Shown here: positions 16,154 through 29,609 of the stretch, in pieces | Position numbering within the stretch: position 1 is the first letter of the stretch | Layout: every line of letters begins with the position of its first letter | NCBI GenBank assembly: GCA_963703575.1 | Contig: CAVPEU010000008.1 | Location: 193,880 to 257,879, forward strand | Direction of reading: 5' to 3' | DNA length: 64,000 nt | DNA from: an uncultured Chloroflexia bacterium | Lineage (GTDB): Bacteria; Chloroflexota; Limnocylindria; Limnocylindrales; CSP1-4 | Program-made: the position numbers and the translations under genes | Notes under the pieces: generated by a model | Database searches by the model: none | Told to the model about the DNA's origin: nothing | The model's input: the letters and a program-made list of their open reading frames with translations, nothing else

Positions 16154-17197
16154 TCAGGGGCGCGGCCAGCCCTCGGCGTCGCCCTTCGGGCGCAGCTGCA
16201 CGAACTCGAACCCGAAGCGGCCCTTCACGCACAGGTGGCCGCCGCCAGCCGACGAATCGAGTGGCGAGGTCACCTTGACGATCGAGTTGTCCTGGACGTG
16301 GAGGGAGAGCGTGCAGCCCACGCCGCAGTACGGGCAGATCGTGTCCGTCGTCGTCTGGGCGGCTGGATCCCAGGTGCCGGCGACGCGCATCTCGTGCTCG
16401 GAGCGGAACATCAGTGCGCCGGTCGGGCAGACGCCGATGCAGTTGCCGCAGTAGACGCACGCCGACTCCGGGAGCGGGACGTCGAACTCGCTCGAGATCC
16501 GGGCGTCGAAGCCACGCCCGGCGACCGAGATCGCGAACGTGTTCTGGGCGTCCTCGCCGCATGCCTCGACGCACTTGTAGCAGAGGATGCAGCGCGAGTA
16601 GTCGCGGACGTACAGGTCGTTGTCCACCTTGACCGGCTGGGACACGGTCCGGGCCTCGGCCATCGCGCCCGTGGGCGCATGGTGGTGCCCGGGCTCGCGC
16701 GCGTCGCGCTCGCCCGCCGCCGCAGGTGCCGTCGCGGGACCGAACCGCGAGGCATCCGCCCCGTATCGGGCGGCGTACCGCGCCAGGTCTCCGTCCGGTT
16801 GGGTGGGCCCCGCCAGCGACAGGTCCACGGACGAGCCCAGCAGCTCGAGGACCATCCGGCGCGAATGGCGCACGCGCTCGCTGTCGGTCTGGATCTCCAT
16901 CCCGGGCTCCACGCGCCGCGAGCAGGCGGGGACCAGCACCCGTGACCCGGTGACCTCGACGACGCACACGCGGCACACGTTGACCGGGGTGAGGTTCTCG
17001 AGGTAGCACAGCGTGGGGGTGTCGATGCCGACGGACCGCGCGGCCTCGAGGATCGTGGAGCCGGCCGGGACGGTGACGGCCGCACCGTCGATGGTCAGCT
17101 CCACGTCCGGGACCTCGGGGGCGGGCGGCGGCTCGGGCACGCGTGTGGAGCGGGCCGGGGGCTGGACGAAGATGCGGCCGATGTCGAGCTCGGTCAT
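16154..17197 (-). CDS. Formate dehydrogenase alpha, N-terminal iron-sulfur module only (NuoG-like 2Fe-2S and two 4Fe-4S sites, plus the Mo-domain 4Fe-4S motif), ending prematurely
   Basis: 2Fe-2S motif CYLENLTPVNVCRVCVVEV...C; ferredoxin-type motifs CILCYKCVEAC and CVYCGNCIGVCP; then ICPYCGVGC...CVKGRFGFEFV, the FeS-0 motif of molybdopterin oxidoreductases. The ORF stops about 15 residues later. Start ATG overlaps the fdhB stop (ATGA). Confidence 0.75.
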   Translation of the reverse strand: MTELDIGRIFVQPPARSTRVPEPPPAPEVPDVELTIDGAAVTVPAGSTILEAARSVGIDTPTLCYLENLTPVNVCRVCVVEVTGSRVLVPACSRRVEPGMEIQTDSERVRHSRRMVLELLGSSVDLSLAGPTQPDGDLARYAARYGADASRFGPATAPAAAGERDAREPGHHHAPTGAMAEARTVSQPVKVDNDLYVRDYSRCILCYKCVEACGEDAQNTFAISVAGRGFDARISSEFDVPLPESACVYCGNCIGVCPTGALMFRSEHEMRVAGTWDPAAQTTTDTICPYCGVGCTLSLHVQDNSIVKVTSPLDSSAGGGHLCVKGRFGFEFVQLRPKGDAEGWPRP

Positions 17198-19227
17198 GCG
17201 CTCGATCCCGCGCCGCCCGCCGACGCCGTGCCGCCCGCCGACGGCGTGCCGCCCGCCGACGGCGTGCCGCCCGCGGAACCCGCGCCACCCTCGGACGCCG
17301 TGCCGTCGAAGTGGACGAGGCCCGTGCGGATCGCGCTCTCGATCGCCGACGACGCGGTCTGGCCGAGGCCGCAGATCGATGCGTCGCGCATCGCACGCGA
17401 GAGGTCGGCGAACCGGGTCATCTCCGCCGACAGGGAGCCCAGCGGCCGCCCGGCGACCAGCCGGGCAAGCAGTTCCTCCTGGCGGACGGTTCCCACCCGG
17501 CAGGGCACGCACTGGCCGCACGACTCGTCGCGGAAGAAGGCGGCGATCCGGCGGAGCACACCCGGCAGATCCGCCGTCTGGTCGAACACCAGCACCACTC
17601 CCGAGCCGAGCGTGGCGCCGGCGGCCCTCGTTCCCTCGAACGTGAGCGGCGTGTCCAGCCGGTCCGGGCCCACGAACGCTCCGGCGGCGCCGCCGAGCAG
17701 CACGGCCTGGATCGCCCGGCCGCCCGGGACGCCCCCGGCCAGTTCGATGACCTCGCCCAGCGTTGCCCCGAACGGCAGCTCGTACACACCGGGCCGGGTC
17801 ACGTCACCCGAGACGCAGAACAGCTTGGGCCCGGTGGAGCCCTCGGTGCCGATCCGCGCATACGCTTCGCCGCCCAGCCGCAGGATGAGCGGCACGTTAA
17901 CCAGGGTCTCCACGTTGTTGATCGCCGTGGGCTGGCCGAACAGGCCGAACTCCACCGGGAACGGCGGCTTGTTGCGCGGCTCCGGGCGACCGCCTTCGAT
18001 GGATTCGAACAGGGCGGTCTCCTCGCCGGCGATGTAGGCGCCGGCCCCGATGCGGAGCTCGATGTCGAACGACCAGCCGCTGCCGGCGACGTCGTCTCCC
18101 AGCAGGCCGGCCGCCCGCGCCTGGGCCAGCGCGCTCGCGAGGCGCTCCCGCGCCAGCGGGTACTCGCCGCGCAGGTACAGGTACCCGCGCGAGGCGCCGA
18201 CGGCGAACCCCTCGATCGTCATCGCCTCGAGGAGCGCGAACGGGTCCTCCTCCAGGATCGCGCGGTCCTTGAACGTGCCCGGCTCGGACTCGTCCGCGTT
18301 GCACACGACGTAGCGGGGCGTCGCCGGCTGAGCGGCCACCGCGGCCCACTTGCGGCCGGTGGGGAAGGCGGCGCCACCCCGGCCGACCAGCCGCGAGGCC
18401 GTGACCTCGGCGATGACGGCATCCGCGCCGATCGCGATGGCGCGCGCGAGGGCCTGGTAGCCGCCGGCGGCGCGGTAGGCGGCCAGGGAGGTCGGGTCCA
18501 CCCGGCCGACCCGGGCGAGGAGCCGCAGGTCCCCGGCACCGGCCTGGGGGGCGAGGCCCCGCACCCACTCGAGGGGCGCGGCGGCCGCGTCGCGCAGCTC
18601 GGCGCGGACCCGCTCCGGCCCGCCGTGCGCCACCTCCACGCACCAGCCGAGGGTGTCGGTCACGGCGTCCGCGCCGTCCAGCTCGCCGGCGACGAGAGCG
18701 CCCGCCTCCGGCCCGGCCACCGTCACCAGCATCGCGGGCGCACGCTCGCACTGGCCCAGGCACGGGCTCCGCTGCCACGTCCCGTCGCCGTCGTGGAGCG
18801 GCGTGCCGGGCGTCCCGACCGTCCGCTCCAGGTCCTCGCAGATCCGCTCCCCGCCGGCCAGCCGGCAGGCGATGTCGTCGCACACGTGGGCGACGACAGG
18901 CGGTCGCGGCGTCGTCGGCAGCAGCGTGTAGAAGGAGGCGACGCCATAGGCATCCGCGGGCGGCACCGACAGTCGGCGGGAGACGTGGTTGAGCGCCCCG
19001 CGACTCACCCAGCCGACCCGCGCGGCCGCCGCCTCCAGGGCCGGCAGCAGCAGGGTGCGTTGCGCCCGCGCCCCGTGTCCGCCCCGCGCGGCGCGCCCGT
19101 CCAGGGCGATGGCCCGGTCGCCGCCGTCCCAGCCGCCGCGCGCGGGCCCGATCTCCGGGTCGAGGACGGCGTCGATCGCCGCCCGCTCCTCGGGTGTCGC
19201 CGCGGGACCGACGACGTGGAGATCCAT
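17194..19227 (-). CDS. Formate dehydrogenase beta subunit, fused NuoE-like (2Fe-2S) and NuoF-like (FMN/NAD/4Fe-4S) domains
   Basis: NuoE-like thioredoxin-fold Cys motifs (CDDIAC...CLGQC). NuoF motifs (GRGGAAFPTG, CNADESEPGTFKDR, ESCGQCVPCR). C-terminal Gly/Ser/Ala-rich tail is encoded by a 21 bp x 3 tandem repeat. Confidence 0.8.
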   Translation of the reverse strand: MDLHVVGPAATPEERAAIDAVLDPEIGPARGGWDGGDRAIALDGRAARGGHGARAQRTLLLPALEAAAARVGWVSRGALNHVSRRLSVPPADAYGVASFYTLLPTTPRPPVVAHVCDDIACRLAGGERICEDLERTVGTPGTPLHDGDGTWQRSPCLGQCERAPAMLVTVAGPEAGALVAGELDGADAVTDTLGWCVEVAHGGPERVRAELRDAAAAPLEWVRGLAPQAGAGDLRLLARVGRVDPTSLAAYRAAGGYQALARAIAIGADAVIAEVTASRLVGRGGAAFPTGRKWAAVAAQPATPRYVVCNADESEPGTFKDRAILEEDPFALLEAMTIEGFAVGASRGYLYLRGEYPLARERLASALAQARAAGLLGDDVAGSGWSFDIELRIGAGAYIAGEETALFESIEGGRPEPRNKPPFPVEFGLFGQPTAINNVETLVNVPLILRLGGEAYARIGTEGSTGPKLFCVSGDVTRPGVYELPFGATLGEVIELAGGVPGGRAIQAVLLGGAAGAFVGPDRLDTPLTFEGTRAAGATLGSGVVLVFDQTADLPGVLRRIAAFFRDESCGQCVPCRVGTVRQEELLARLVAGRPLGSLSAEMTRFADLSRAMRDASICGLGQTASSAIESAIRTGLVHFDGTASEGGAGSAGGTPSAGGTPSAGGTASAGGAGSSA

Positions 19228-19337
19228 GGCTGCCGAGTGTAGACCGGCCGCGCGTCGCTCGTCCGGCGGCCCAACGGCACGCGGCCGGTGGTCCCGCGGC
19301 GCCGGCCCGCGCGGCGCGCCGGCCCGCGCGGGCGGGC

Positions 19338-20441
19338 TCAGAGCCTGATCGGCGGCCCGTACCAGACAGACGCGGCCAGGATCGCGTACAGCCCGAGCAG
19401 CATCAGGCCCTCGAGCCAGGTGGACTCGCCGTCGAACACGACGAGCGCACCCAGGATGGCGGCCAGGGCGAGGCCCACCAGGAGCGTCGGGGCCAGCACG
19501 AGCGTCATCGGCACGGGCGAGATGAGCAGGCTGGCCAGCATCAGCACCGGCGTCAGCGCGATCGCGACCTGGAGGCTCGAGTTCTGGATCAGGCTGATCG
19601 CGAGGTCGGTCCGGTTCCGGAGCGCCGCCTGGATGCCGACCACGTTCTCCACGGCGTTGCCGGCGATCGCGACGATCACGAGGCCGACGAACGCCTCCGA
19701 CAGTCCGAGTGTCGCCATCGCCGGCCGCAGCGCCTCCACGAACCAGTCAGAGACCAGCGCCGCCCCGATGCCGGCGCCCGCCAGCAGGCCCAGGGCAAGC
19801 CCCATCGGCCACTGGTGCTCGGGGACCAGCTCCAGGCTCGAGGCGCCCTTGCCGCCGCCCAGCGAGAAGGGGATCGAGGCGGCGAACACGACCAGCAGGA
19901 CGATGGAGACGAACACGGAGATCTCGACGGCGTGACCCTGGTCGGGGCCGCCCGGCGATGTGGAGATCGTCGGGATCGCGATCGAGGCAACCGCCAGCAC
20001 CAGCACGATCGCGATGTTGCGCACCGGCGCGGCCTGGAACGTCTGGGCGCCGTGCCGGAGACCGCCGGCCACGAACGCGAGCCCCAGCACCAGCAGGCTG
20101 TTGCCGAGGATCGAGCCGATGAGCGCGGTCTGGACGAGGACCACGAGGCCCTCGCGCAGCGCGAACAGCGAGATGAACAGCTCCGGGAGGTTGCCCAGCG
20201 CGGACTGGAGGACGCCCGTGGTCCCGGGCCCGAACCGGCTGCCGAGCTGGTCCGTCCCCTCGCCGACGAGCGCCGCCAGGCCGGCCAGCGTGACCGCCGC
20301 GACCAGGAACACCGCGACCTCGGACGCGCCTGCGAGCCGGAGGACGAACGTGAGCCCGACACCGGCCACGGCGACCGCCAGCAGGACGAGCACCTTGCGG
20401 CCGAGGAGGGTGGCGAGCGGCGGCGCCGCGGTGGATGTCAT
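19338..20441 (-). CDS. Ca2+/H+ antiporter (CaCA/ChaA family)
   Basis: About 11 TM helices with two alpha-repeat signatures (GNLPELF and GNAVENVVG). Confidence 0.8.
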   Translation of the reverse strand: MTSTAAPPLATLLGRKVLVLLAVAVAGVGLTFVLRLAGASEVAVFLVAAVTLAGLAALVGEGTDQLGSRFGPGTTGVLQSALGNLPELFISLFALREGLVVLVQTALIGSILGNSLLVLGLAFVAGGLRHGAQTFQAAPVRNIAIVLVLAVASIAIPTISTSPGGPDQGHAVEISVFVSIVLLVVFAASIPFSLGGGKGASSLELVPEHQWPMGLALGLLAGAGIGAALVSDWFVEALRPAMATLGLSEAFVGLVIVAIAGNAVENVVGIQAALRNRTDLAISLIQNSSLQVAIALTPVLMLASLLISPVPMTLVLAPTLLVGLALAAILGALVVFDGESTWLEGLMLLGLYAILAASVWYGPPIRL

Positions 20442-20565
20442 GCCTGCGACTCTCCGGGCTGTCCGTCCCCCGCGTCAACTCCATCCGTGCGCCCGCCCGG
20501 CGAGCAGGCGGGTGGCGGACCGATGGTGCCCCGGTGGCGGGGCGGCTTGTGCTACCATGTGCTAC

Positions 20566-20865
20566 ATGAGCGAGACCGGCGATCGTCCCTCACGCGTGGG
20601 CGTGCGCGAGCTCCGCCAGAACCTGTCCGTCTACCTGGACCGGGTGAAGGCCGGCGAGACGCTGGAGGTGACGGAGCACGGGCAGCCCGTCGCGCGCCTC
20701 ACGCCGAACCCGCCGCAGCGGCTGTCGCTCGTGGACCGGCTGATCGCGGAGGGGCGGATAACGCCGGCGAAGGGCGATCACCGGACGTTGCCGATGCCGC
20801 CGAAGATCCCAGGCCGTCCACTGAGTGAGATCCTGCGGGAGATGCGGGACGAGGAAGACCGGTGA
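20566..20865 (+). CDS. Type II antitoxin (Phd/YefM-like, VapB partner)
   Basis: 99-aa product (MSETGDRPSRVGVRELRQNLSVYLDRVKAGETLEVTEHGQPVARL...). Stop overlaps the start of the downstream PIN-domain gene. Confidence 0.6.
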   Translation: MSETGDRPSRVGVRELRQNLSVYLDRVKAGETLEVTEHGQPVARLTPNPPQRLSLVDRLIAEGRITPAKGDHRTLPMPPKIPGRPLSEILREMRDEEDR

Positions 20866-21254
20866 GCGAGCTCACCTACGCCGACGCATCCGCGCTCGTC
20901 AAGCTCGTCGTCGAGGAGCCGGAATCCCGGGCGATGCACCGATGGTTCGTTGAGGCCGGGCGGATCACGACGAGCCGGATCGGCATCATCGAGACCGTGC
21001 GCGCATCGTCGCGGCGCGATCACGACCCGGACCACCGGGACCGCGTCCTCAACGACGTCGAGGTGTTCGAGCTCGACGCCGCGATCGCCGGCGTCGCCGC
21101 ATCGCTGGAACCGTTCCTGCTCCGGACGCTGGACGCCATCCACCTGGCGACGGCGCTGGCGCTCGTGCCGGACCTCGATGCCTTCGTGACCTATGACGAT
21201 CGCCTCGCGGAGGCGGCGCGCGCGATCGGGCTTCCGGTGGTCCGACCGGCCTGA
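20862..21254 (+). CDS. vapC: PIN-domain ribonuclease toxin VapC
   Basis: 130 aa; PIN acidic residues in canonical spacing (DASALVKL...EVFELD...DAIHLATA...). Confidence 0.75.
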   Translation: MSELTYADASALVKLVVEEPESRAMHRWFVEAGRITTSRIGIIETVRASSRRDHDPDHRDRVLNDVEVFELDAAIAGVAASLEPFLLRTLDAIHLATALALVPDLDAFVTYDDRLAEAARAIGLPVVRPA

Positions 21255-21496: not shown

Positions 21497-23419
21497 TCAG
21501 CCGGTCGCGGCCGGGGCGCCGAGCTTCTCGACCCGGATCGCCGTCGCCTTGAACTCGGCCGTGCCGGACTTCGGGTCCGCCGCGTCGATCGTGAGGTTGT
21601 TGACCGCGACGTCGTCCTGGAAGTGGAGCGTCATGAACGCGAGGCCGGGCCGGAGCCCCTCGTCCACCCGGACCGGCGCCTCCACCTCGCCCCGGCGCGA
21701 GACCACGCGCACGCGCTCGCCCTCGGCCAGGCCCAGGCGCGCCACGTCCTCCGGTGACAGATCCAGCGTCTCGCCGCGGCGCCGCGGATAGCGGTAGCCG
21801 CCGGACTGGACGCCCGTGTTGTAGGAGTCCAGGTGCCGGCCGGTGGTCAGGCGGATCGGGAAGTCCGCGTCCAGCCGGTCCACCGGCGGGTCGTGCTCCA
21901 CCGGCACGAACGGCGCACGGTCGCCCGGGACCGGGTCCTCCCACAATCGGGAGTGGAGGAACAGCTCGCCCGGGTGCGTCTCGTCGTAGCACGGCCACTG
22001 GAGGCCGCCCTCCGCCTCCAGCCGCGCGTAGCTCATGCCCCGATGCACCGGGGAGAGGCTGCGGAGCTCGTTCCACACCGCCTCCGCGGACGGCTCACCC
22101 CAATCGTGGCCGAGGCCGCGCGCGATGTCGAAGATGATCGCCAGGTCGTCGCGTGCCTCGCCCGGCGGTGCCAGGGCGCGCCGCACCCGCTGGACGCGCC
22201 GCTCGGAGTTCGTGACCGTGCCCTCGCTCTCGGCCCACGCGGCGGCCGCCGGCAGTACGACGTCCGCCACCTCGGCAGTCGCGGTGAGGAAGATGTCCTG
22301 GACGACGAGGAAGTCGAGCCCGCGCAGCAGCAGCTCGGTCCGGTGGCGGTCCGCCTCGGACTGCATCGGGTTCTCGCCGATGACGTACAGGGCGGTCAGC
22401 TCGCCGCGCTCCATCGCGTCGAACATGCCGGTCAGGTGCCAGCCCTTCTTCGGCGGGACCTTGACCCCCCAGGCCGCGTCGAAGGGGGCCCGGAGCTCGT
22501 CCTGCTCCACGTGCTGGAAGCCCGGCAGCCGGTCCGGCAGGGCTCCCATGTCGCCGCCGCCCTGGACGTTGTTCTGGCCCCGCAGCGGGTTGATGCCGCT
22601 GCCGTACTTCCCGACGTGGCCGGTGAGCAGGGCGAGCGAGATCAGGGCGAGCACGTTGTCCACCGCGTTGTGGTGCTCGGTGATGCCCAGGGTCCAGCAG
22701 ATCATCGCGCGGTCCGCCGTCGCGTAGGCGTGGGCGGCCTCGCGGATGGCCTCCGCGGGGACACCGGTCTCCCGCTCCGCGTATTCGAGGGTGTATGGCT
22801 CGACGCCCGCTCGATACGCGTCGAAGCCGGACGTGGCGCGGGCGATGAACTCCTCATTCGCGAGACCGGCCGCGATGATCTCGCGGCCCATCGCGTTGGC
22901 GAGCGCGATGTCGGAGCCCACGTCGAGGCCCAGCCACAGGTCGGCCCACTGGGCGCTCGACGTCCGCCGCGGGTCCACCGCGATCAGCCGGGCGCCACGG
23001 TGCACCCCCCGGAGGAGGTGGTGGAAGAAGATCGGGTGCGTCTCCCGGGCGTTGCTGCCCCACAGGAGGACGAGATCCGTCTCCTCAGCCTCTCGATATG
23101 AGCTGGTACCGCCGCCAGCGCCGAACACGGTCGCCAGACCGGCGACAGAGGGGGCGTGTCAGGTGCGGTTGCAGCTGTCGATGTTGTTGCTGCCCAGGAC
23201 GACACGGGAGAGCTTCTGGGCCGCGAAGTTGACCTCGTTGGTCGACTTGCTGCAGCTGAAGATCCCGTACGTCCGGGAGCCGTGCGCCTCGCCAGCGGCC
23301 CGGAGCCCCGCGACCGTCCTCGCCAGCGCCTCGTCCCAGGTCGCGGGACGCAGGACGCCGGTGCTTCGGTCGCCGTCGCGGACGAGCGGCGTGGTCAGGC
23401 GGACATACTCCTTCGGCAC
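21497..23419 (-). CDS. fdhA: Formate dehydrogenase alpha, catalytic molybdopterin module; selenoprotein with in-frame UGA (Sec) at 23159..23161
   Basis: GTG start with AAGAGG Shine-Dalgarno and an in-frame stop two codons upstream. The two ORFs 23159..23419 and 21497..23128 are contiguous in one frame across a TGA: ...NIDSCNRT-TGA-HAPSVAGLATVFGAGGGTSS..., matching the fdhF ...CARV-U-HGPSVAGL Sec motif. The remainder is molybdopterin oxidoreductase plus C-terminal molybdopterin-binding domain. Confidence 0.85.
23105..23158 (-). promoter_or_regulatory. Bacterial SECIS element immediately 3' of the Sec-UGA of fdhA
   Basis: mRNA after UGA: CACG CCCCUCU GUCGCC GGUCU GGCGAC CGUG UUCGG. This gives a 4-bp lower stem, a 6-bp upper stem and a GGUCU apical loop, near-identical in architecture to the E. 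coli fdhF SECIS (loop GGUCU). Confidence 0.6.
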
Positions 23420-23763: not shown

Positions 23764-24819
23764 CTACCGGAGCGCGACGGCCGCCTCGCCCGCCTCCACG
23801 TTGCCGACCCGCCACGCCGCGACGCCCGCCGCCGCCAGGTCCGCCTCCACCTCCGCGAGCCGGTCCGCCGTCACGGCGGCGAGGAGCCCCCCGGATGTCT
23901 GCGGATCGTGGGCGAGCGCCACGAGCTCGGGCGGGACCCCGATCGCGACGTCCAGTGCGGGTGCCGTGAACCGCCGGTTGTGCCCCGCGCCCCCGGTCTC
24001 CACGCCGGCCCGCGCGAGATCGAGCGCGCCGTCGAGGGCGGGCAACGCGCCGGCCTCGAACACCAGCCGGACCCCCGACGCGCGGGCCATCTCGAGCCCG
24101 TGACCCAGGAGCCCGAACCCGGTCACGTCAGTCGCGCCGCGGATGCCGTGACGCACGAGGACCTCGGAAGCGGCGCGGTTGAGCGCCCTCATCTGGTTCA
24201 CGGCCGCGGCCAGGTCCGCGTCGCTCGTCCGGCCCTGCCGCCGTCCGCTGACCAGCAGACCCGTTCCCAGGGGCTTGGTGAGCAGGAGCGCGTCCCCGGG
24301 CCGCGCGCCGCCCTTGCGCAGCAGCCGGTCCGGGTGCGCCGCGCCGATCACGGCCAGCCCGTACTTCGGCTCAGGGTCCCGGATCGTGTGACCACCGGCC
24401 AGGATGCCGCCAGCCTCGCGCACCTTCGCCGCCGCCGCCTCGAGCACCGCGGTCAGCGCGTCGTTCGGGAAGTCCTCTGGGAACGCCGCGATCGAGAGCG
24501 CGAACAGCACCCGCCCGCCCATCGCGAACACGTCCGACAGCGCGTTCGCCGCAGCGATCTCCCCGTAGGCCGCCGGGTCGTCCACGAGCGGCGGGAAGAA
24601 GTCGAGCGTGCCGAGGATCGCGAGGTCGTCCGAGATGCGGTACGCGGCGGCGTCGTCGGGCGGATCGAGGCCGGCCAGGAGCGCGGGATCCGGGGCCGAA
24701 CCCGCGCCCAGCCCGGCCAGCGCCTCGGCCAGCAGGTCCGCGCCCAGCTTCGCCGCGCAGCCGCCGCAGTCGGTGAGGTCGGTCAGGCGGATCGGGGCGA
24801 GGTCGGGACGCGCCGTCAT
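23764..24819 (-). CDS. selD: Selenophosphate synthetase (selenide, water dikinase) SelD, Cys form
   Basis: N-terminal LTDLTDCGGCAAKLG motif; AIR-synthase-like fold motifs (GGHT, DVTGFGLLGH). Directly upstream of the fdhA selenoprotein gene on the same strand. Confidence 0.85.
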   Translation of the reverse strand: MTARPDLAPIRLTDLTDCGGCAAKLGADLLAEALAGLGAGSAPDPALLAGLDPPDDAAAYRISDDLAILGTLDFFPPLVDDPAAYGEIAAANALSDVFAMGGRVLFALSIAAFPEDFPNDALTAVLEAAAAKVREAGGILAGGHTIRDPEPKYGLAVIGAAHPDRLLRKGGARPGDALLLTKPLGTGLLVSGRRQGRTSDADLAAAVNQMRALNRAASEVLVRHGIRGATDVTGFGLLGHGLEMARASGVRLVFEAGALPALDGALDLARAGVETGGAGHNRRFTAPALDVAIGVPPELVALAHDPQTSGGLLAAVTADRLAEVEADLAAAGVAAWRVGNVEAGEAAVALR

Positions 24820-24887
24820 GCGCGGATCATAGGCGGGTCGGCCCGGGCGATCATCGGCGGGTCGGCCCGGGCGCTACCATCGCGGGC

Positions 24888-24984
24888 GGGAGCGGAGGGG
24901 TCCCGGTGGGCTCCCCGGTCTTCAAAACCGGTGGCGCGGCGCCCGGCGTCGCGCGGTGGGTTCGACTCCCATGCGCTCCCGCCA
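24888..24984 (+). tRNA. selC: tRNA-Sec (selC), anticodon UCA at 24922..24924
   Basis: 97 nt. Acceptor GGGAGCG pairs with CGCUCCC, then discriminator G and encoded CCA. Anticodon arm CCGGU-CUUCAAA-ACCGG (loop identical to E. coli tRNA-Sec), a long GC-rich variable arm, and T arm GGUUCGACUCC. Located between selD and selA. Confidence 0.75.
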
Positions 24985-24997
24985 TCCTCTTGAGGCG

Positions 24998-26158
24998 TCA
25001 GGCGGACGGCGTTCCGAAGCGGCCGGGATCGAGCTCGGCCGCGATCTCCGGTCCACGTCCCAGCACCAGGTCCGCGATCAGCCGCGCCGACGCCGGGCCG
25101 GTGGAGATGCCCCACGGCCCGTGCCCCGCGCACACGAACAGGTTGCGCCGGCCGGGGACGGCCCCGATCAACGGCCGCCCGTCCGCGCTCTGGGGCCGGG
25201 CGCAGGCGCGGACCCCGCGGATCGGCGCCTCGGCGATACCCGGCACGAAGCGGCTCGCGCGCACCAGGATCCGTTCCATCCAGGCCGCCGGGTCCGGCTC
25301 ACGCGGCAGGAACGTGGACCCGACGGCCGCCGCGCCCGGCAGGGGAACGAGGCTGGACTCGACCTCGTCGGGCTCGCCGGCATCGGTGTCGCCGCCCGGC
25401 GTGGGCTCGCCGCCGGCGTCGAGCACGGCCTCGATCCCTGCCTCCTCCAGGGCGTGGCGCGGTGGCGCCGCCAGCTCGGCCTCCACCACGACCCCCCAGC
25501 GCGGGGCGATCGGCGCCCACAGCCCCGAGGGATCGAGCAGCGCCGGGGTCCAGGGGCCGGCGGCAACCACGACGGCGCCGGCCGGGATCACCTGGCCGTT
25601 CACGCGCACGCCGACCACCGCGTCGCCCTCGACCTCGAGCGTCGCCCCATGCCCCAGGCGGATCACCGCGCCCCGCGACTCGGCCAGCGTGGCGTACGCG
25701 TAGGTGGAGGCGCCGGGCATCACCGGATAGCCGATGTCGACGCGGCAGGCCCACAGGTCCTCGCCGACCGCCGGTTCCAGCCGCCGCAGCGCCTCGCCAC
25801 CGACCACGTCGAGTGCCAGCTCCGGGAAGGGACCCTCGATCAGCGTCCTCTGGCGTCGCGCCGCCGCCTCCGAGGTCGAGATGTAGAGCATCCCGACCGG
25901 ATGCTCCGCGAACGGGAAGGCGTTCGAGATCGTCGCCAGCTCGCGGTACAGGCCGACGGTCTCGCGATAGAGGGCGGCCAGCACGGGGTCGAACGGATGC
26001 TGCACGACGCCCGAGTTGGCGCCCGACGCCCCCGACGCCAGGCCCTCTCGCTCGACCAGCACGACACGCGCCCCCGCCGCGCCCAGGAAGGCGGCCGTCG
26101 CGGTGCCCACGATCCCGCCGCCGACCACCACCACGTCCGGTGCCGCGCCCGTCCGCAT
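24998..26158 (-). CDS. FAD-dependent oxidoreductase (DAO family; glycine/D-amino-acid oxidase-like)
   Basis: N-terminal Rossmann motif (DVVVVGGGIVGTATAAFLGAAGARVVLVERE) and C-terminal CAGHGPWGIS. Start taken at MRTGAAPD; divergent from selA. Confidence 0.65.
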   Translation of the reverse strand: MRTGAAPDVVVVGGGIVGTATAAFLGAAGARVVLVEREGLASGASGANSGVVQHPFDPVLAALYRETVGLYRELATISNAFPFAEHPVGMLYISTSEAAARRQRTLIEGPFPELALDVVGGEALRRLEPAVGEDLWACRVDIGYPVMPGASTYAYATLAESRGAVIRLGHGATLEVEGDAVVGVRVNGQVIPAGAVVVAAGPWTPALLDPSGLWAPIAPRWGVVVEAELAAPPRHALEEAGIEAVLDAGGEPTPGGDTDAGEPDEVESSLVPLPGAAAVGSTFLPREPDPAAWMERILVRASRFVPGIAEAPIRGVRACARPQSADGRPLIGAVPGRRNLFVCAGHGPWGISTGPASARLIADLVLGRGPEIAAELDPGRFGTPSA

Positions 26159-26220
26159 CGCGCCTCCTCCAACCAACGCCCGGGCCATCGTAGTCTCGCC
26201 GGGCCTGCGATGATCGCGCG

Positions 26221-27657
26221 GTGAGCGTCGCCCATCGGCCCAGCCATAGCCCGGGCCACCCGCCCGGCCACCCGCCCGGCCACCCGCCCAGCCATCCGCC
26301 CAGCGTCGAACGGCTGCTTGGGCTCGTCCGCGAGCAGGTCGAGCCATCCGAGCCCGCGGCCCTGACCGCGCTTGCCCGGGCGGTGCTCGACGAGGAGCGC
26401 CGGCGGCTGGCCGCCGGCGCGCCGCCGACCCCGGAGCCCGAGCTGGCCGACGCGCTCCTGGCGCGCCTCGCCGATCTCGACGATCCACGGTCCACGATTC
26501 CGCCCCGCGTGATCAACGCGACGGGCGTGATCCTGCACACGAACCTCGGCCGCGCGCCCTGGCCGCGGGCGGCCCGCACCGCCGCGACGCTGGCCGCCGG
26601 CTCCTACGGCTACCTGGAGCTGGACGAGGCGACCGGCCGCCGGGGCGCCAGGTTCCGGGTCGCCGAGGAGCACCTGGTCGCCTTGACCGGCGCCGGGGAC
26701 GCGATGGTCGTCACCAACAACGCGGCCGCGCTGCTGCTCGCCGTGGGGCTCGCCGGGCGACGGGGGTCGGTCGTCGTGTCGCGCGGCGAGCTGGTCGAGA
26801 TCGGCGGCGGGGTGCGGATCCCGGAGGTCGTGGCGCGGGCCGGCGCGCGGCTGGTCGAGGTCGGCACGACGAACCGGACGCGCGCCGCGGACTTCGAGCC
26901 GCCGCTCGCCGACGGCCGGGCACGGGCGGTGCTGCGGGTACATCCGTCCAACTTCTCCATGCAGGGCTTCACCGAGACGGCGGACCTCGCGGAGGTCGCC
27001 GCGATCGCCCACCGCCACGGCGCGCTCGTGATCGACGACCTGGGCTCCGGGGCGCTGCTGGACACGGCGACATTCGGCCTCGTCCACGAGCCGATGCCGG
27101 CGGAGCGTCTCGCCGCCGGCGCGGACGCCGTCCTGTTCAGCGGCGACAAGCTCGTCGGCGGGCCGCAGGCGGGGCTGATCGTCGGTCGCGCCGACCTGGT
27201 GGCGAAGCTCCGGCGGGACCCGCTGGCCCGGGCGATCCGCCCGGACAAGGCGATCCTCGCCGGGGTTGCCGCCACGCTCGCGATCTACCGAGCCGGGCGG
27301 GCGGCGAGCGACATCCCCGTGTGGCGGCTGATCGCCCGGGAGCCGGAGGAGCTCCGGGAGCGTGCCGAGTGGATCCGGGGGCTGGCGGCCGCGGCCGGAC
27401 GGGCGGACGTCACGGTGGTGGAGCTCGAGTCGCCGGTCGGGGGCGGCTCACTGCCCGGCCAGACGCTGAGGTCCTTCGGCGTCTCCGTGCCGGCCGCCTC
27501 GCCCACGCGCGCGCTCGCCATCCTGCGCCGGGGCCCGGACCGGATCCTGGCCCGGATCGTGGATGATGCGATCGCGTTCGACCTGAGAACTGTCGAACCG
27601 TTCGAGGACGGTACGATCGCCCGGCGGATCGCGGACGTGCCGCCGCCCCGGCGATGA
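26221..27657 (+). CDS. selA: L-seryl-tRNA(Sec) selenium transferase SelA
   Basis: VINATGVILHTNLGRAP motif and the PLP-lysine region FSGDKLVGGPQAG; about 470 aa. Confidence 0.85.
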   Translation: MSVAHRPSHSPGHPPGHPPGHPPSHPPSVERLLGLVREQVEPSEPAALTALARAVLDEERRRLAAGAPPTPEPELADALLARLADLDDPRSTIPPRVINATGVILHTNLGRAPWPRAARTAATLAAGSYGYLELDEATGRRGARFRVAEEHLVALTGAGDAMVVTNNAAALLLAVGLAGRRGSVVVSRGELVEIGGGVRIPEVVARAGARLVEVGTTNRTRAADFEPPLADGRARAVLRVHPSNFSMQGFTETADLAEVAAIAHRHGALVIDDLGSGALLDTATFGLVHEPMPAERLAAGADAVLFSGDKLVGGPQAGLIVGRADLVAKLRRDPLARAIRPDKAILAGVAATLAIYRAGRAASDIPVWRLIAREPEELRERAEWIRGLAAAAGRADVTVVELESPVGGGSLPGQTLRSFGVSVPAASPTRALAILRRGPDRILARIVDDAIAFDLRTVEPFEDGTIARRIADVPPPRR

Positions 27658-29609
27658 GCGGCCCGATGAGTGGTCCCCTGAGCAGCCCGATGGGCGACCC
27701 GATGAGCGGTCCCGTGGGGTCGTCGCCGGCCAGCGTCGTCGTGGGCACGGCCGGGCACATCGACCACGGCAAGACAGCGCTCCTGCGCGCCCTCACCGGC
27801 ATCGACGCGGACCGGCTGCCGGAGGAGCGGCGCCGCGGCATCACGGTCGACGTGGGGTACGCCCACCTCGCGCTCCCGGACGGGTCGGTCGTGGATTTCG
27901 TGGACGTGCCGGGCCACGACCGGCTGGTGGGGAACATGCTCGTGGGCGCCGGCGAGATCGACGCCGCGATGCTCGTCGTGGCGGCGGACGACGGGCCGAA
28001 CGCCCAGACCCTGGAGCACCTGGAGCTGCTGGATGCACTGGGGATCCGCGACGGGCTGGCCGTGGTGACGAAGGCCGACCTGGCGCCGGACGACGGGCGC
28101 CGCGCGGAGCTGGTGGCGGAGGTTCGCGCGCTGCTGGACCGGACCGCCCTCGCCGGCGCGCCGGTGCTGGTGGCGTCGGCGGTGACGGGCGAAGGGGTCG
28201 AAGCCGTGCGGGCGACGATCGGGGAGGTGGCGCGGGACGTGGCGGCACGGTTGCCTGCCGGCGGTCCGCCGCGGCTCGCGATCGACCGCGTGTTCGCGGT
28301 CCGGGGCCGCGGGACGGTGGTCACCGGCAGCCTGCGGGGCGGACAGGTGACGGCCGGCATGACGCTCCGGCTGGTGCCCGACGATCACGGGGTCCGCGTG
28401 CGCGAGGTGCAGGTCCGCGGGGCGACCGTGAGCGACGCCCACGGCGGACGGACGGCGCTGCTGCTGGGCGGGATCGAAGCGGATGTCCTGCGGCGGGGCC
28501 AGGTCCTGACGGCGGACCCCGTGGTCGCCGCGACGTCCCGGGTGCTGGTCGCGGTCCGGCCGGTGGCCGCGCTGGAACCCGGCCGCCCGTCGCCGCCCGC
28601 GCCCGCCGATCGCGAGCGGCTGCGGCTCCATGCCGGTACCGCGCAGGCCGAGGCGCTCGTGGTGCGCGGGCCGCGCGAGGCGATCGAGCTGGCCGATGGG
28701 TCGTCTGTCGCGCTGCTCCGCCTGGACCAGGCGATCGCCGTGGCGCCCGGCGACGCGTTCGCCCTGCGCCGTCCGTCGCCGGGCTCCACGGCCGGCGGCG
28801 GCGTCATCCTCGATCCGGACCCGCCCCGCGGCGTCTCCCGGCGACGCCTGAGCCCGTCCCGGGCGATGGCCCTCGCGGCATCGCCGGTGGGTGGCGCGCC
28901 AGCGAGGCTGGACCTCCACGGCGCGTTGCGCGGACCCGCTGGCTGGGCGCTGGCCGCGGACGTCGCCGACGCGCTGGAGTCCCGCGCCCGCGACCTCGTC
29001 ACCGCCCACCACGACGCCGAGCCCGCGTCGCCGGGCATGCCGGCGCCCGCGTTGCGGCAGGACCTCGCGCTCGCGGCCCGTCGCCTGGTGACGCTCGGTC
29101 GGGCGGCCGCCGACGAGGTGGCGCGAGGCGTCGTGGACGCGCTCGTGGCCCGCGGCGCGCTCGCCCGGGACGGCGATCGGCTGCGGGATGCGGCGCGCGC
29201 GCCGGGGTTGCCCCGGGACACGCTCGCCGCGATGGACCGCCTGGAGCAGGCGCTCGCGGTCGCGGCGCCGCCGGGTCTCGCGAACGCCGCACGAGCGGCG
29301 GGGTGCCCGCCCGAGGGGATCCGCGCCCTGGAGGCTGCCGGCCGGATCGTCCGGCTGGAGGACGACCTCGCCTGGGCGGCGACGACGTATCGGGACCTCG
29401 TGACGCGTGCTCTCGCGATGGCCGCCACCGGGCCCCTCTCGCCGGCCGCGTTCCGCGATGCGACCGGCAGCAGCCGCCGCTACGTGCTCGTGATCCTCGA
29501 GGACCTGGACCGGCGAGGGCTGTTGCGGCGCACGGACGCGGGCCACGTCCTCGGCCCCACGACGCTGGCCCGGACGCGCGAGCGGGCGGCCACGGCGGCC
29601 TCCGAGTGA
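27654..29609 (+). CDS. selB: Selenocysteine-specific elongation factor SelB
   Basis: GTPase motifs (GHIDHGKT, DVPGH, TKAD) followed by a long winged-helix C-terminal extension. Start overlaps the selA stop (ATGA). Confidence 0.85.
   Translation: MSGPMSGPLSSPMGDPMSGPVGSSPASVVVGTAGHIDHGKTALLRALTGIDADRLPEERRRGITVDVGYAHLALPDGSVVDFVDVPGHDRLVGNMLVGAGEIDAAMLVVAADDGPNAQTLEHLELLDALGIRDGLAVVTKADLAPDDGRRAELVAEVRALLDRTALAGAPVLVASAVTGEGVEAVRATIGEVARDVAARLPAGGPPRLAIDRVFAVRGRGTVVTGSLRGGQVTAGMTLRLVPDDHGVRVREVQVRGATVSDAHGGRTALLLGGIEADVLRRGQVLTADPVVAATSRVLVAVRPVAALEPGRPSPPAPADRERLRLHAGTAQAEALVVRGPREAIELADGSSVALLRLDQAIAVAPGDAFALRRPSPGSTAGGGVILDPDPPRGVSRRRLSPSRAMALAASPVGGAPARLDLHGALRGPAGWALAADVADALESRARDLVTAHHDAEPASPGMPAPALRQDLALAARRLVTLGRAAADEVARGVVDALVARGALARDGDRLRDAARAPGLPRDTLAAMDRLEQALAVAAPPGLANAARAAGCPPEGIRALEAAGRIVRLEDDLAWAATTYRDLVTRALAMAATGPLSPAAFRDATGSSRRYVLVILEDLDRRGLLRRTDAGHVLGPTTLARTRERAATAASE

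What the first reader, a model, noticed from the sequence alone, without database searches (positions are those of the whole stretch)
24888..24984. Un-annotated tRNA-Sec (selC) between selD and selA
A 97-nt sequence has a 7-8 bp acceptor stem (GGGAGCG / CGCUCCC), discriminator G and encoded CCA. Its anticodon arm, CCGGU-CUUCAAA-ACCGG, carries anticodon UCA and a loop identical to E. coli tRNA-Sec. It also has a long GC-rich extra arm and a GGUUCGACUCC T arm. It sits exactly where selC is expected in a sel locus. The six-frame ORF track cannot show RNA genes, so this would otherwise be missed.
Basis: seen in the sequence. Interest (0 to 1): 0.6.

Follow-up and report, generated by a model that had tools for sequence, protein, structure and literature searches.

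The report
Ordinary selenocysteine tRNA gene (selC)
The 97-base stretch is a genuine, standard bacterial selenocysteine tRNA gene sitting among the genes that load and deliver selenocysteine and next to a selenium-containing formate dehydrogenase gene; routine tRNA software finds it, so it is real but ordinary.

Summary
Confirmed and ordinary. Window 24888-24984 (+) is a tRNA-Sec gene. ARAGORN calls tRNA-SeC with anticodon TCA. Rfam RF01852 scores 70.4 bits against a gathering score of 47 (E 2.3e-12). It aligns position for position with E. coli selC. Twenty-nine distinct homologues from Chloroflexota class Limnocylindria MAGs support the bacterial 8/5 cloverleaf: 96.9% of cells are paired and 10 pairs show compensatory changes. 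The 9/4 fold is disfavoured.

The locus holds the whole Sec machinery: selD (-), 68 nt upstream and divergent, then selA (+) and selB (+) downstream. It also holds a client gene, fdhA (-), with an in-frame TGA followed by a conserved GGUCU-capped hairpin. Both are kept in 7 relatives.

- A DAO-family oxidoreductase gene on the opposite strand lies between the tRNA and selA.
- The 8th acceptor 'pair' is an invariant G·G mismatch.
- 'Un-annotated' cannot be tested here.

The G·G is not special. In a metagenome sample, 32 of 46 canonical-layout tRNA-Sec genes have a non-Watson-Crick layer 8, and G·G is the commonest.

Side observations: a conserved -10-like hexamer lies about 7 nt before the mature 5' end, and FdhA lacks its N-terminal Fe4S4 domain across the lineage.

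The parts
24888..24984 (+). tRNA-Sec gene (selC), 97 nt, with G73 and an encoded CCA
   Evidence: ARAGORN tRNA-SeC. Rfam RF01852 at 70.4 bits against GA 47. The alignment to E. coli selC is position for position. Covariation in 29 distinct homologues.
24888..24895 (+). Acceptor stem, 5' strand (GGGAGCGG). It pairs with 24973-24980 (GCGCUCCC) as 7 Watson-Crick pairs plus a G·G at layer 8.
   Evidence: Pairs 1-7 are kept in 29 of 29 sequences, and layer 8 is G·G in 29 of 29. The 5' leader is not conserved, so ARAGORN's start at 24886 is 2 nt too early.
24898..24913 (+). D arm: 6-bp stem (GGGUCC/GGGCUC) with a 4-nt loop CGGU
   Evidence: 5 of 6 pairs show changes on both sides, and 100% of cells are paired.
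24915..24931 (+). Anticodon arm CCGGU-CUUCAAA-ACCGG, with anticodon TCA at 24922-24924
   Evidence: 3 of 5 pairs are compensatory. The loop is identical to that of E. coli selC.
24934..24954 (+). Long variable arm: 9-bp stem with a 3-nt loop
   Evidence: MFE fold. 100% of cells are paired, and 2 pairs are compensatory.
24956..24972 (+). T arm: 5-bp stem (GUGGG/CCCAU) with loop UUCGACU
   Evidence: The first pair is G:U in 26 and G:C in 3, paired in 29 of 29, which favours 8/5 over 9/4.
24875..24880 (+). -10-like hexamer TACCAT, 7 nt upstream of G1 (inferred selC promoter element)
   Evidence: A TAnnnT hexamer is present in 35 of 36 distinct upstream regions of homologues. It ends 6-9 nt before G1 in 18 of 36, against 0.25 expected from shuffles. 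Its function is inferred and not shown. The consensus promoter scan found nothing.
23764..24819 (-). selD (selenide, water dikinase), divergent from the tRNA. It is a Cys-type enzyme with N-terminus ...DCGGCAAK.
   Evidence: TIGR00476 at 338.9 bits against cut-off 125. AIRS and AIRS_C domains. N-terminal sequence.
24998..26158 (-). DAO-family FAD-dependent oxidoreductase lying between the tRNA and selA. No role in the Sec pathway is known.
   Evidence: PF01266, E 1.9e-45. There are only sub-threshold ThiO-like and other NCBIfam hits. The likely start is ATG 26158, preceded by GGAGGAGG. It is present in many but not all relatives, and in variable positions.
26221..27657 (+). selA (L-seryl-tRNA(Sec) selenium transferase)
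   Evidence: TIGR00474 at 424.5 bits against 267.9. PF03841, E 5.8e-111.
27654..29609 (+). selB (Sec-specific elongation factor with a C-terminal winged-helix SECIS-binding domain)
   Evidence: TIGR00475 at 283.3 bits against 242.25. PF00009, PF09107 and PF25461.
21497..23419 (-). fdhA, the formate dehydrogenase alpha subunit. It is a selenoprotein with Sec at codon 87 (TGA 23159-23161).
   Evidence: The TIGR01591 match is split exactly at the TGA: profile 53-127 before it and 130-672 after it. The motif is SCNRT-U-HAPSVAGL. TGA is conserved in 7 relatives.
23130..23146 (-). SECIS-like hairpin GUCGCC-GGUCU-GGCGAC, starting 12 nt after the UGA of fdhA
   Evidence: Sequence. Local MFE hairpin. 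The hairpin sequence is identical in all 8 loci, although the 12-nt spacer differs in two of them.

Best explanation
This is the functional selenocysteine tRNA gene (selC) of a high-G+C Chloroflexota genome of the class Limnocylindria.

The RNA has the standard bacterial tRNA-Sec architecture:
- an 8-layer acceptor stem plus a 5-bp T stem (8/5);
- a 6-bp D stem with a 4-nt loop;
- anticodon UCA;
- a long variable arm;
- discriminator G73 and an encoded CCA.

The mechanism is inferred from the established bacterial Sec pathway:
1. Seryl-tRNA synthetase charges the tRNA with serine. G73 and the long variable arm are the identity elements.
2. SelA converts Ser-tRNA(Sec) to Sec-tRNA(Sec), using selenophosphate made by SelD.
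3. SelB·GTP binds Sec-tRNA(Sec) and the hairpin that follows the in-frame UGA of the neighbouring fdhA mRNA.
4. Selenocysteine is inserted at residue 87 of formate dehydrogenase.

Shown here: the gene, its fold, its conservation, the presence of all three protein factors, and a UGA-plus-hairpin client. Inferred: expression, charging, conversion and decoding.
For: - ARAGORN calls tRNA-SeC with anticodon tca, the only tRNA in 64 kb.
- Rfam tRNA-Sec matches full length at 70.4 bits against a gathering score of 47, E 2.3e-12.
- The architecture is identical, position for position, to annotated E. coli selC.
- 29 distinct Limnocylindria homologues give 96.9% paired cells, 10 pairs with changes on both sides, 0 of 500 shuffles reaching any of the five measures, and a collapse to 41-58% pairing when partners are slid.
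- The 8/5-specific pair 69:85 holds in 29 of 29. The 9/4-specific pair 9:85 fails in 9 of 29.
- selD, selA and selB pass their equivalog cut-offs.
- The order selD(-), tRNA-Sec(+), selA(+), selB(+) recurs across about 35 related loci.
- fdhA has an in-frame TGA at the canonical Sec site, followed by a GGUCU-capped hairpin. Both are conserved in 7 relatives.
Against: Nothing substantive.
- Folding energy alone is not significant in this GC-rich sequence (z = -1.5).
- The 8th acceptor layer is a G·G mismatch instead of a pair. The same is true of 9 of 46 other canonical-layout tRNA-Sec genes sampled from metagenomes, and 32 of 46 lack a standard pair there.
- There is no expression or aminoacylation data.
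- The consensus promoter and terminator scan found nothing.
Confidence: 0.96

Rival explanations
1. It is a tRNA-Sec look-alike that does not carry selenocysteine. One candidate is a selC*-type tRNA-Cys with a UCA anticodon. Another is an allo-tRNA acting as a plain opal suppressor, as described by Mukai et al. (PMC5389517).
For: Such look-alikes score well against the tRNA-Sec covariance model and were first found among its hits (PMC5389517). Non-standard tRNA-Sec forms have been reported from Chloroflexi.
Against: - selC* tRNAs have discriminator U73 and allo-tRNAs have 8/4 or 9/3 branches. This RNA has G73 and 8 + 5 layers, exactly like E. coli selC.
- It is the only Sec-type tRNA in a locus with selA, selB, selD and a UGA-containing fdhA. 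If it were not tRNA-Sec, the machinery would have no substrate nearby.
Confidence: 0.02
2. It is a decaying or inactive relic of selC in a lineage that is losing the selenocysteine trait.
For: - The G·G mismatch in the acceptor stem.
- fdhA lacks its N-terminal Fe4S4 domain.
- The region between selC and selA varies in content among relatives.
Against: - The tRNA is 94% identical per column across 29 distinct sequences, with compensatory changes that preserve every stem.
- The G·G is invariant, not sporadic, and is common in other tRNA-Sec genes.
- selA, selB and selD are intact and score above their equivalog cut-offs.
- The TGA and its hairpin are kept in all 8 fdhA genes, with the same N-terminus.
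Confidence: 0.02
3. The tRNA starts 2 nt earlier (24886, as ARAGORN reports), with a 9-10 bp acceptor stem that uses G73 and C74 as paired bases.
For: In this window the two bases before G1 (GC) are complementary to G73-C74. ARAGORN reports 24886-24984 here, and likewise 99-nt genes in about half of the relatives.
Against: - The two upstream bases are not conserved among relatives (gc, ac, gt, ag, gg, ct and others).
- Rfam places model position 1 at 24888.
- The extension would consume the discriminator and part of the CCA.
- E. coli selC aligns from G1 = 24888.
Confidence: 0.01

Closest known systems
Escherichia coli selC, tRNA-Sec(UCA), b3658 (Rfam RF01852, bacterial 8/5 type)
   Same: The segment lengths are the same throughout: 8-layer acceptor, 2-nt linker, 6-bp D stem, CGGU D loop, 1 nt, 5-bp anticodon stem, CUUCAAA loop, long variable arm, 5-bp T stem opening with G:U, UUCGACU T loop, G73 and an encoded CCA. 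Both decode UGA in a formate dehydrogenase whose SECIS hairpin is capped by GGUCU. The E. coli fdhF SECIS sequence is from my own knowledge and was not retrieved here.
   Different: - Layer 8 is C:G in E. coli and G·G here.
- The variable arm is 2 nt longer, with a 9-bp stem and 3-nt loop.
- The gene is linked to selD, selA and selB. E. coli selC is not in a sel locus; its neighbours are yicJ and setC.
tRNA-Sec genes of other Limnocylindria MAGs (e.g. L012, CAWGWF010000001.1)
   Same: The L012 tRNA is 100% identical in sequence. The others are 94% identical per column on average. The divergent selD neighbour and the downstream selA-selB are the same.
   Different: - The distance from the tRNA to selA ranges from about 50 nt to 8.6 kb.
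- The DAO gene is absent in some, next to the tRNA in others, and next to selA in others.
- The 24-nt tandem duplication upstream was found in the window. L002's upstream region carries a single related copy.
Non-canonical bacterial tRNA-Sec with a 12-bp acceptor/T branch (7/5 Cloacimonetes type; Epsilonproteobacteria with a bulge; 8/4 with bulge 51a in Actinobacteria and Chloroflexi)
   Same: This tRNA has only 12 standard pairs in the acceptor/T branch, and it comes from the phylum Chloroflexota, where an 8/4 form was reported (PMC5389517, PMC5330540).
   Different: [quoted passage not shown] There is no bulge, no shortened linker and no 4-bp T stem. It is therefore not one of these variants.

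Membership tests
tRNA-Sec (Rfam RF01852; bacterial selC) | Covariance-model score at or above the curated gathering score | tested here: met
   70.4 bits against 47, E 2.3e-12, model positions 1-91 of 91, not truncated.
tRNA-Sec (Rfam RF01852; bacterial selC) | Anticodon UCA in a 7-nt loop | tested here: met
   TCA at 24922-24924 within CUUCAAA. Invariant in 29 homologues.
tRNA-Sec (Rfam RF01852; bacterial selC) | 13-layer acceptor plus T branch in the bacterial 8/5 arrangement | tested here: met
   There are 8 residues on each acceptor strand and a 5-bp T stem. Pair 69:85 holds in 29 of 29, and the 9/4 alternative fails in 9 of 29. Caveat: layer 8 is G·G, not a standard pair. That is also the case in 9 of 46 sampled canonical-layout tRNA-Sec genes, and 32 of 46 have some non-standard layer 8.
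tRNA-Sec (Rfam RF01852; bacterial selC) | 6-bp D stem with a 4-nt D loop | tested here: met
   GGGUCC-CGGU-GGGCUC. 5 of 6 pairs show changes on both sides and 100% of cells are paired.
tRNA-Sec (Rfam RF01852; bacterial selC) | Long variable arm and discriminator G73 (SerRS identity elements) | tested here: met
   21-nt variable arm with a 9-bp stem. G at 24981 followed by CCA.
tRNA-Sec (Rfam RF01852; bacterial selC) | Co-occurrence with selA, selB, selD and at least one UGA/SECIS selenoprotein gene | tested here: met
   All three equivalogs are above cut-off within 5 kb. fdhA has a TGA plus a conserved hairpin.
tRNA-Sec (Rfam RF01852; bacterial selC) | Serylation by SerRS, conversion by SelA, binding by SelB and not EF-Tu | not testable with these tools
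   Requires biochemistry. Inferred from the architecture and the gene context.
selC* tRNA-Cys / allo-tRNA (Mukai et al., PMC5389517) | U73 discriminator (selC*), or an 8/4 or 9/3 twelve-pair branch (allo-tRNA) | tested here: not met
   The discriminator is G and the branch is 8/5 with 13 layers.
12-bp AT-stem tRNA-Sec variants (PMC5330540, PMC5389517) | [quoted passage not shown] | tested here: not met
   [quoted passage not shown] The definitions are taken.

The most novel reading that the evidence does not exclude
In this genome and in about half of its Limnocylindria relatives, the only -10-like hexamer upstream of selC ends 6-9 nt before G1. Transcription would then start at, or within about 2 nt of, the mature 5' end. 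This tRNA-Sec could be made essentially without a 5' leader and so with little or no need for RNase P. That is how eukaryotic tRNA-Sec is made (from my own knowledge), and it would be unusual for a bacterial tRNA. The other relatives carry the hexamer 10-41 nt upstream, so they would still have leaders.
Probability: 0.2. Interest if true: 0.35.

Novelty: already known. Interest (0 to 1): 0.08.

Why it matters
It matters only for annotation. Recognising selC, together with selA, selB and selD, marks this Limnocylindria genome as a selenocysteine user. It also shows that the TGA at 23159-23161 is a Sec codon. fdhA should therefore be annotated as one selenoprotein of about 640 residues, not as two fragments or a pseudogene. 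No new biology follows from the tRNA itself.

Tried and rejected
1. G·G at acceptor layer 8 as a lineage-specific novelty. It is invariant in 29 of 29 Limnocylindria sequences, and it lies where, from my own knowledge, E. coli tRNA-Sec has its EF-Tu antideterminant. A metagenome sample rejected the idea: of 46 distinct canonical-layout tRNA-Sec genes, 32 had a non-standard layer 8 and G·G was the commonest at 9, across unrelated variable arms.

2. The 9/4 fold. Rejected.

3. ARAGORN's start 2 nt earlier. Rejected because the leader is not conserved.

4. A 7-bp D stem (G10:C27, as in the MFE fold). In the aligned sequences, column 10 is T in the rows that read GGTT, GGAT or GGGT after the acceptor strand, and T opposite C27 cannot pair. 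The extra pair is therefore not conserved. This was read from the alignment and not counted with a tool.

5. selC as an island integration site. No second copy of the tRNA 3' end occurs in the window, so there is no att-like repeat. The variable content between selC and selA in relatives was not pursued.

6. Identifying the source record by exact look-up of the SelD protein. Not on record.

7. BLAST of the tRNA against E. coli genomes. No match at this divergence, so E. coli selC was fetched by coordinates instead.

8. Looking for the missing Fe4S4 domain of FdhA. It is absent from all three minus-strand frames between selD and fdhA. It is also absent from the ORFs upstream of fdhA in L002 and L014, which encode an MttB-like protein and a glycosyltransferase.

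9. The consensus sigma-70 and terminator scan found nothing around the tRNA.

Full report
**1. The observation**

The sequence at window 24888-24984 (+) reads GGGAGCGG AG GGGUCC CGGU GGGCUC C CCGGU CUUCAAA ACCGG UG GCGCGGCGC CCG GCGUCGCGC G GUGGG UUCGACU CCCAU GCGCUCCC G CCA.
- seven Watson-Crick acceptor pairs (GGGAGCG / CGCUCCC);
- discriminator G and an encoded CCA;
- the anticodon arm CCGGU-CUUCAAA-ACCGG, with TCA at 24922-24924;
- a long GC-rich variable arm;
- a GGUUCGACUCC T arm.

ARAGORN finds exactly one tRNA in the 64-kb window, a tRNA-SeC with anticodon tca at 24886-24984. Rfam finds exactly one family at gathering threshold. It is tRNA-Sec (RF01852) at 24888-24980, scoring 70.4 bits against a gathering score of 47, with E 2.3e-12 and model positions 1-91 of 91.

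Thermodynamic folding gives the expected cloverleaf at -55.6 kcal/mol. In this G+C-rich DNA (window 73.5% G+C; the match itself 76%) that is only 1.5 sd better than shuffles. Energy alone is therefore not evidence. The covariance model and the comparative data are.

**2. Where the gene starts**

ARAGORN's start is 2 nt upstream of Rfam's. In this window the bases at -2 and -1 (GC) happen to complement G73-C74. In the relatives those two bases vary freely, and E. coli selC aligns from G1 = 24888.

**3. Relatives and fold**

A scan of species-representative genomes with the neighbouring SelA protein returned 62 loci. Apart from two MAGs labelled Terriglobales and Anaerolineaceae, the close ones (60-89% SelA identity) are labelled Chloroflexota, Chloroflexia, Limnocylindria or Limnocylindrales.

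ARAGORN finds a tRNA-SeC in most of them. Thirty-six Limnocylindria-type copies collapse to 30 distinct sequences. One of them, L012, is identical to the window.

I aligned the 29 distinct 97-nt sequences without gaps and counted pairs for two structures.
- **Bacterial 8/5 structure:** 96.9% of cells form standard pairs, 10 pairs have changes on both sides, and none of 500 shuffles reaches the observed value on any of the five measures. Sliding the partners drops pairing to 41-58%.
- **D stem, anticodon stem and variable stem:** these carry 5, 3 and 2 compensatory pairs respectively.
- **The discriminating pair:** pair 69:85, specific to 8/5, is G:U in 26 sequences and G:C in 3, so it is paired in 29 of 29. 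Pair 9:85, specific to 9/4, fails in 9 of 29.

The fold is the bacterial 8/5 type.

**4. Comparison with the prototype**

I fetched annotated E. coli K-12 selC (b3658) and aligned it. The segment lengths are the same throughout. The D loop (CGGU), anticodon loop (CUUCAAA), T loop (UUCGACU), the opening G:U of the T stem, and GCCA are all identical.

The one architectural difference is acceptor layer 8. It is C:G in E. coli and in an acidobacterial outgroup (L045), and G·G in the window and in all 29 Limnocylindria sequences.

I asked whether this is unusual. The literature documents other departures from 8/5 (PMC5389517, PMC5330540):
- 12-bp branches of 7/5 type;
- bulged forms in Epsilonproteobacteria;
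- 8/4 with a bulge at 51a in Actinobacteria and Chloroflexi.

[quoted passage not shown] It belongs to none of these variants.

A generic anticodon-loop plus T-loop pattern scanned over metagenome contigs gave 120 loci. Forty-six distinct sequences met a strict canonical layout: 7 of 7 acceptor pairs, 5 of 5 T pairs, G73, CCA, and D and anticodon stems in register. ARAGORN called all 46 as tRNA-SeC. Of these, 32 have a non-standard layer 8, and G·G is the most frequent combination (9), occurring with unrelated variable arms.

It is still enough to show that a mismatched layer 8 is commonplace, so this feature is not a novelty.

**5. Gene context**

Pfam and NCBIfam scans give the following order.

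| Gene | Coordinates | Strand | Evidence |
|---|---|---|---|
| fdhA | 21497-23419 | - | see section 6 |
| selD | 23764-24819 | - | TIGR00476, 338.9 bits against 125 |
| tRNA-Sec | 24888-24984 | + | sections 1-4 |
| DAO-family FAD oxidoreductase | 24998-~26158 | - | PF01266, E 1.9e-45; no equivalog reached |
| selA | 26221-27657 | + | TIGR00474, 424.5 bits against 267.9 |
| selB | 27654-29609 | + | TIGR00475, 283.3 bits against 242.25; C-terminal SelB winged-helix domain |

selD is 68 nt away and divergent. A gene on the opposite strand separates the tRNA from selA.

The order selD(-), tRNA-Sec(+), selA(+), selB(+) recurs across the relatives. The tRNA-to-selA distance varies from about 50 nt to 8.6 kb. 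The DAO gene is absent in some, adjacent to the tRNA in others, and adjacent to selA in others. No second copy of the tRNA 3' end occurs in the window.

**6. A client selenoprotein**

The molybdopterin oxidoreductase next to selD reads ...GSNNIDSCNRT*HAPSVAGL... in frame, with the stop being TGA at 23159-23161. The formate dehydrogenase alpha equivalog TIGR01591 matches profile positions 53-127 before the TGA and 130-672 after it.

Twelve nucleotides after the UGA lies the hairpin GUCGCC-GGUCU-GGCGAC. The TGA and this hairpin are present in all seven relatives that carry fdhA in the fetched stretch, although the spacer differs in two of them.

The locus therefore holds the tRNA, the three protein factors and a substrate mRNA.

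**7. Mechanism**

The mechanism follows the established bacterial pathway.
1. SerRS serylates the tRNA, using G73 and the long variable arm.
2. SelA converts Ser to Sec with selenophosphate from SelD.
3. SelB·GTP binds Sec-tRNA(Sec) and the SECIS hairpin.
4. Sec is delivered to the UGA at codon 87 of fdhA.

Shown here are the presence, fold and conservation of all components. Expression and the biochemical steps are inferred.

**8. Rivals**

- **selC*-type tRNA-Cys or allo-tRNA.** Excluded by G73 and the 8/5 branch.
- **A decaying relic.** Contradicted by strong purifying selection with compensatory changes, an intact machinery, and conserved TGA codons.
- **The longer ARAGORN gene model.** Contradicted by the non-conserved leader.

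**9. Side observations**

(a) A TAnnnT hexamer occurs in 35 of 36 distinct upstream regions of the Limnocylindria tRNA-Sec genes. Its forms are TACCAT, TACGAT, TATGAT, TATCAT, TACCCT and TACGCT. In 18 of 36, including the window (TACCAT, 24875-24880), it ends 6-9 nt before G1, against a shuffled mean of 0.25. If it is the -10 element, transcription starts at or within about 2 nt of the mature 5' end in those genomes. In the others it lies 10-41 nt upstream.

(b) The selD ATG at 24819 is preceded on its own strand by TATGAT with a 6-nt gap. That hints at a leaderless selD mRNA.

(c) A 24-nt tandem duplication at 24825-24873 lies in the selD-selC intergenic region.

(d) FdhA starts at GTG 23419, with AAGAGG upstream, at profile position about 53. 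It therefore lacks the N-terminal Fe4S4 domain. No frame between selD and fdhA encodes that domain. All seven relatives start at the same VPKEYVRLT. The ORFs upstream of fdhA in L002 and L014 are unrelated.

(e) Beyond fdhA lie a Phd/YefM-PIN pair, a Na/Ca exchanger and a fused NuoE/NuoF-like protein.

**10. Verdict**

The finding is correct and the object is a textbook selC. Routine tools detect it, an identical sequence exists in a public MAG, and its single deviation from E. coli is common elsewhere. Its value is for annotation only: it marks a Sec-using genome, and it means fdhA should be read through its TGA. Novelty: already known. Interest: low.

Noticed in passing
window 21497-23419 (-); also L002, L008, L014, L020, L021, L038, L043: The selenoprotein FdhA starts at GTG 23419, at about position 53 of the TIGR01591 profile. 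It therefore lacks the N-terminal Fe4S4 (CxxCxxxC) domain usual in formate dehydrogenase alpha subunits. No frame upstream encodes the domain. Seven relatives share the same start (VPKEYVRLT), and their upstream ORFs are unrelated, so it is a lineage trait and not an assembly error.
   Followed up: partly
window 24875-24880 (+) and the 60 nt upstream of tRNA-Sec in 36 related loci: A -10-like TAnnnT hexamer occurs in 35 of 36 distinct upstream regions. In 18 of 36 it ends 6-9 nt before G1, against 0.25 expected. That predicts transcription starting at or next to the mature 5' end in those genomes. In the rest it lies 10-41 nt upstream.
   Followed up: partly
window 24820-24831 (read on the - strand): On its own strand, selD's ATG (24819) is preceded by TATGAT with only 6 nt between. 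This suggests a leaderless selD mRNA.
   Followed up: no
window 24825-24873: A perfect-register 24-nt tandem duplication (GATCATAGGCGGGTCGGCCCGGGC x2, 96% match) lies in the 68-nt selD-selC intergenic region. The relative L002 carries a single related copy.
   Followed up: partly
window 24985-26220; related loci L002-L049: The stretch between tRNA-Sec and selA is a variable region in the class. It ranges from about 50 nt to 8.6 kb, and a DAO-family oxidoreductase gene lies next to the tRNA in some genomes, next to selA in others, and is absent in others. No repeat of the tRNA 3' end was found in the window.
   Followed up: partly
window 17194-21254: Beyond fdhA there are three features: a Phd/YefM antitoxin plus PIN-domain toxin pair (+ strand, about 20.6-21.25 kb), a Na/Ca exchanger family protein (19338-20441, -), and a fused NuoE-like 2Fe-2S plus NuoF-like FMN/4Fe-4S protein (17194-19227, -). 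The last is the diaphorase type that partners NAD-linked formate dehydrogenases.
   Followed up: no
L007:2705-2802, L012:10454-10543, L018:18141-18232, L044:683-778 and others: In these GC-rich loci ARAGORN reports several over-long 'tRNAs' of 90-98 nt (Asp, Arg, Ala, Gly and one with a 2-base anticodon). They are probably false positives. They were not examined.
   Followed up: no
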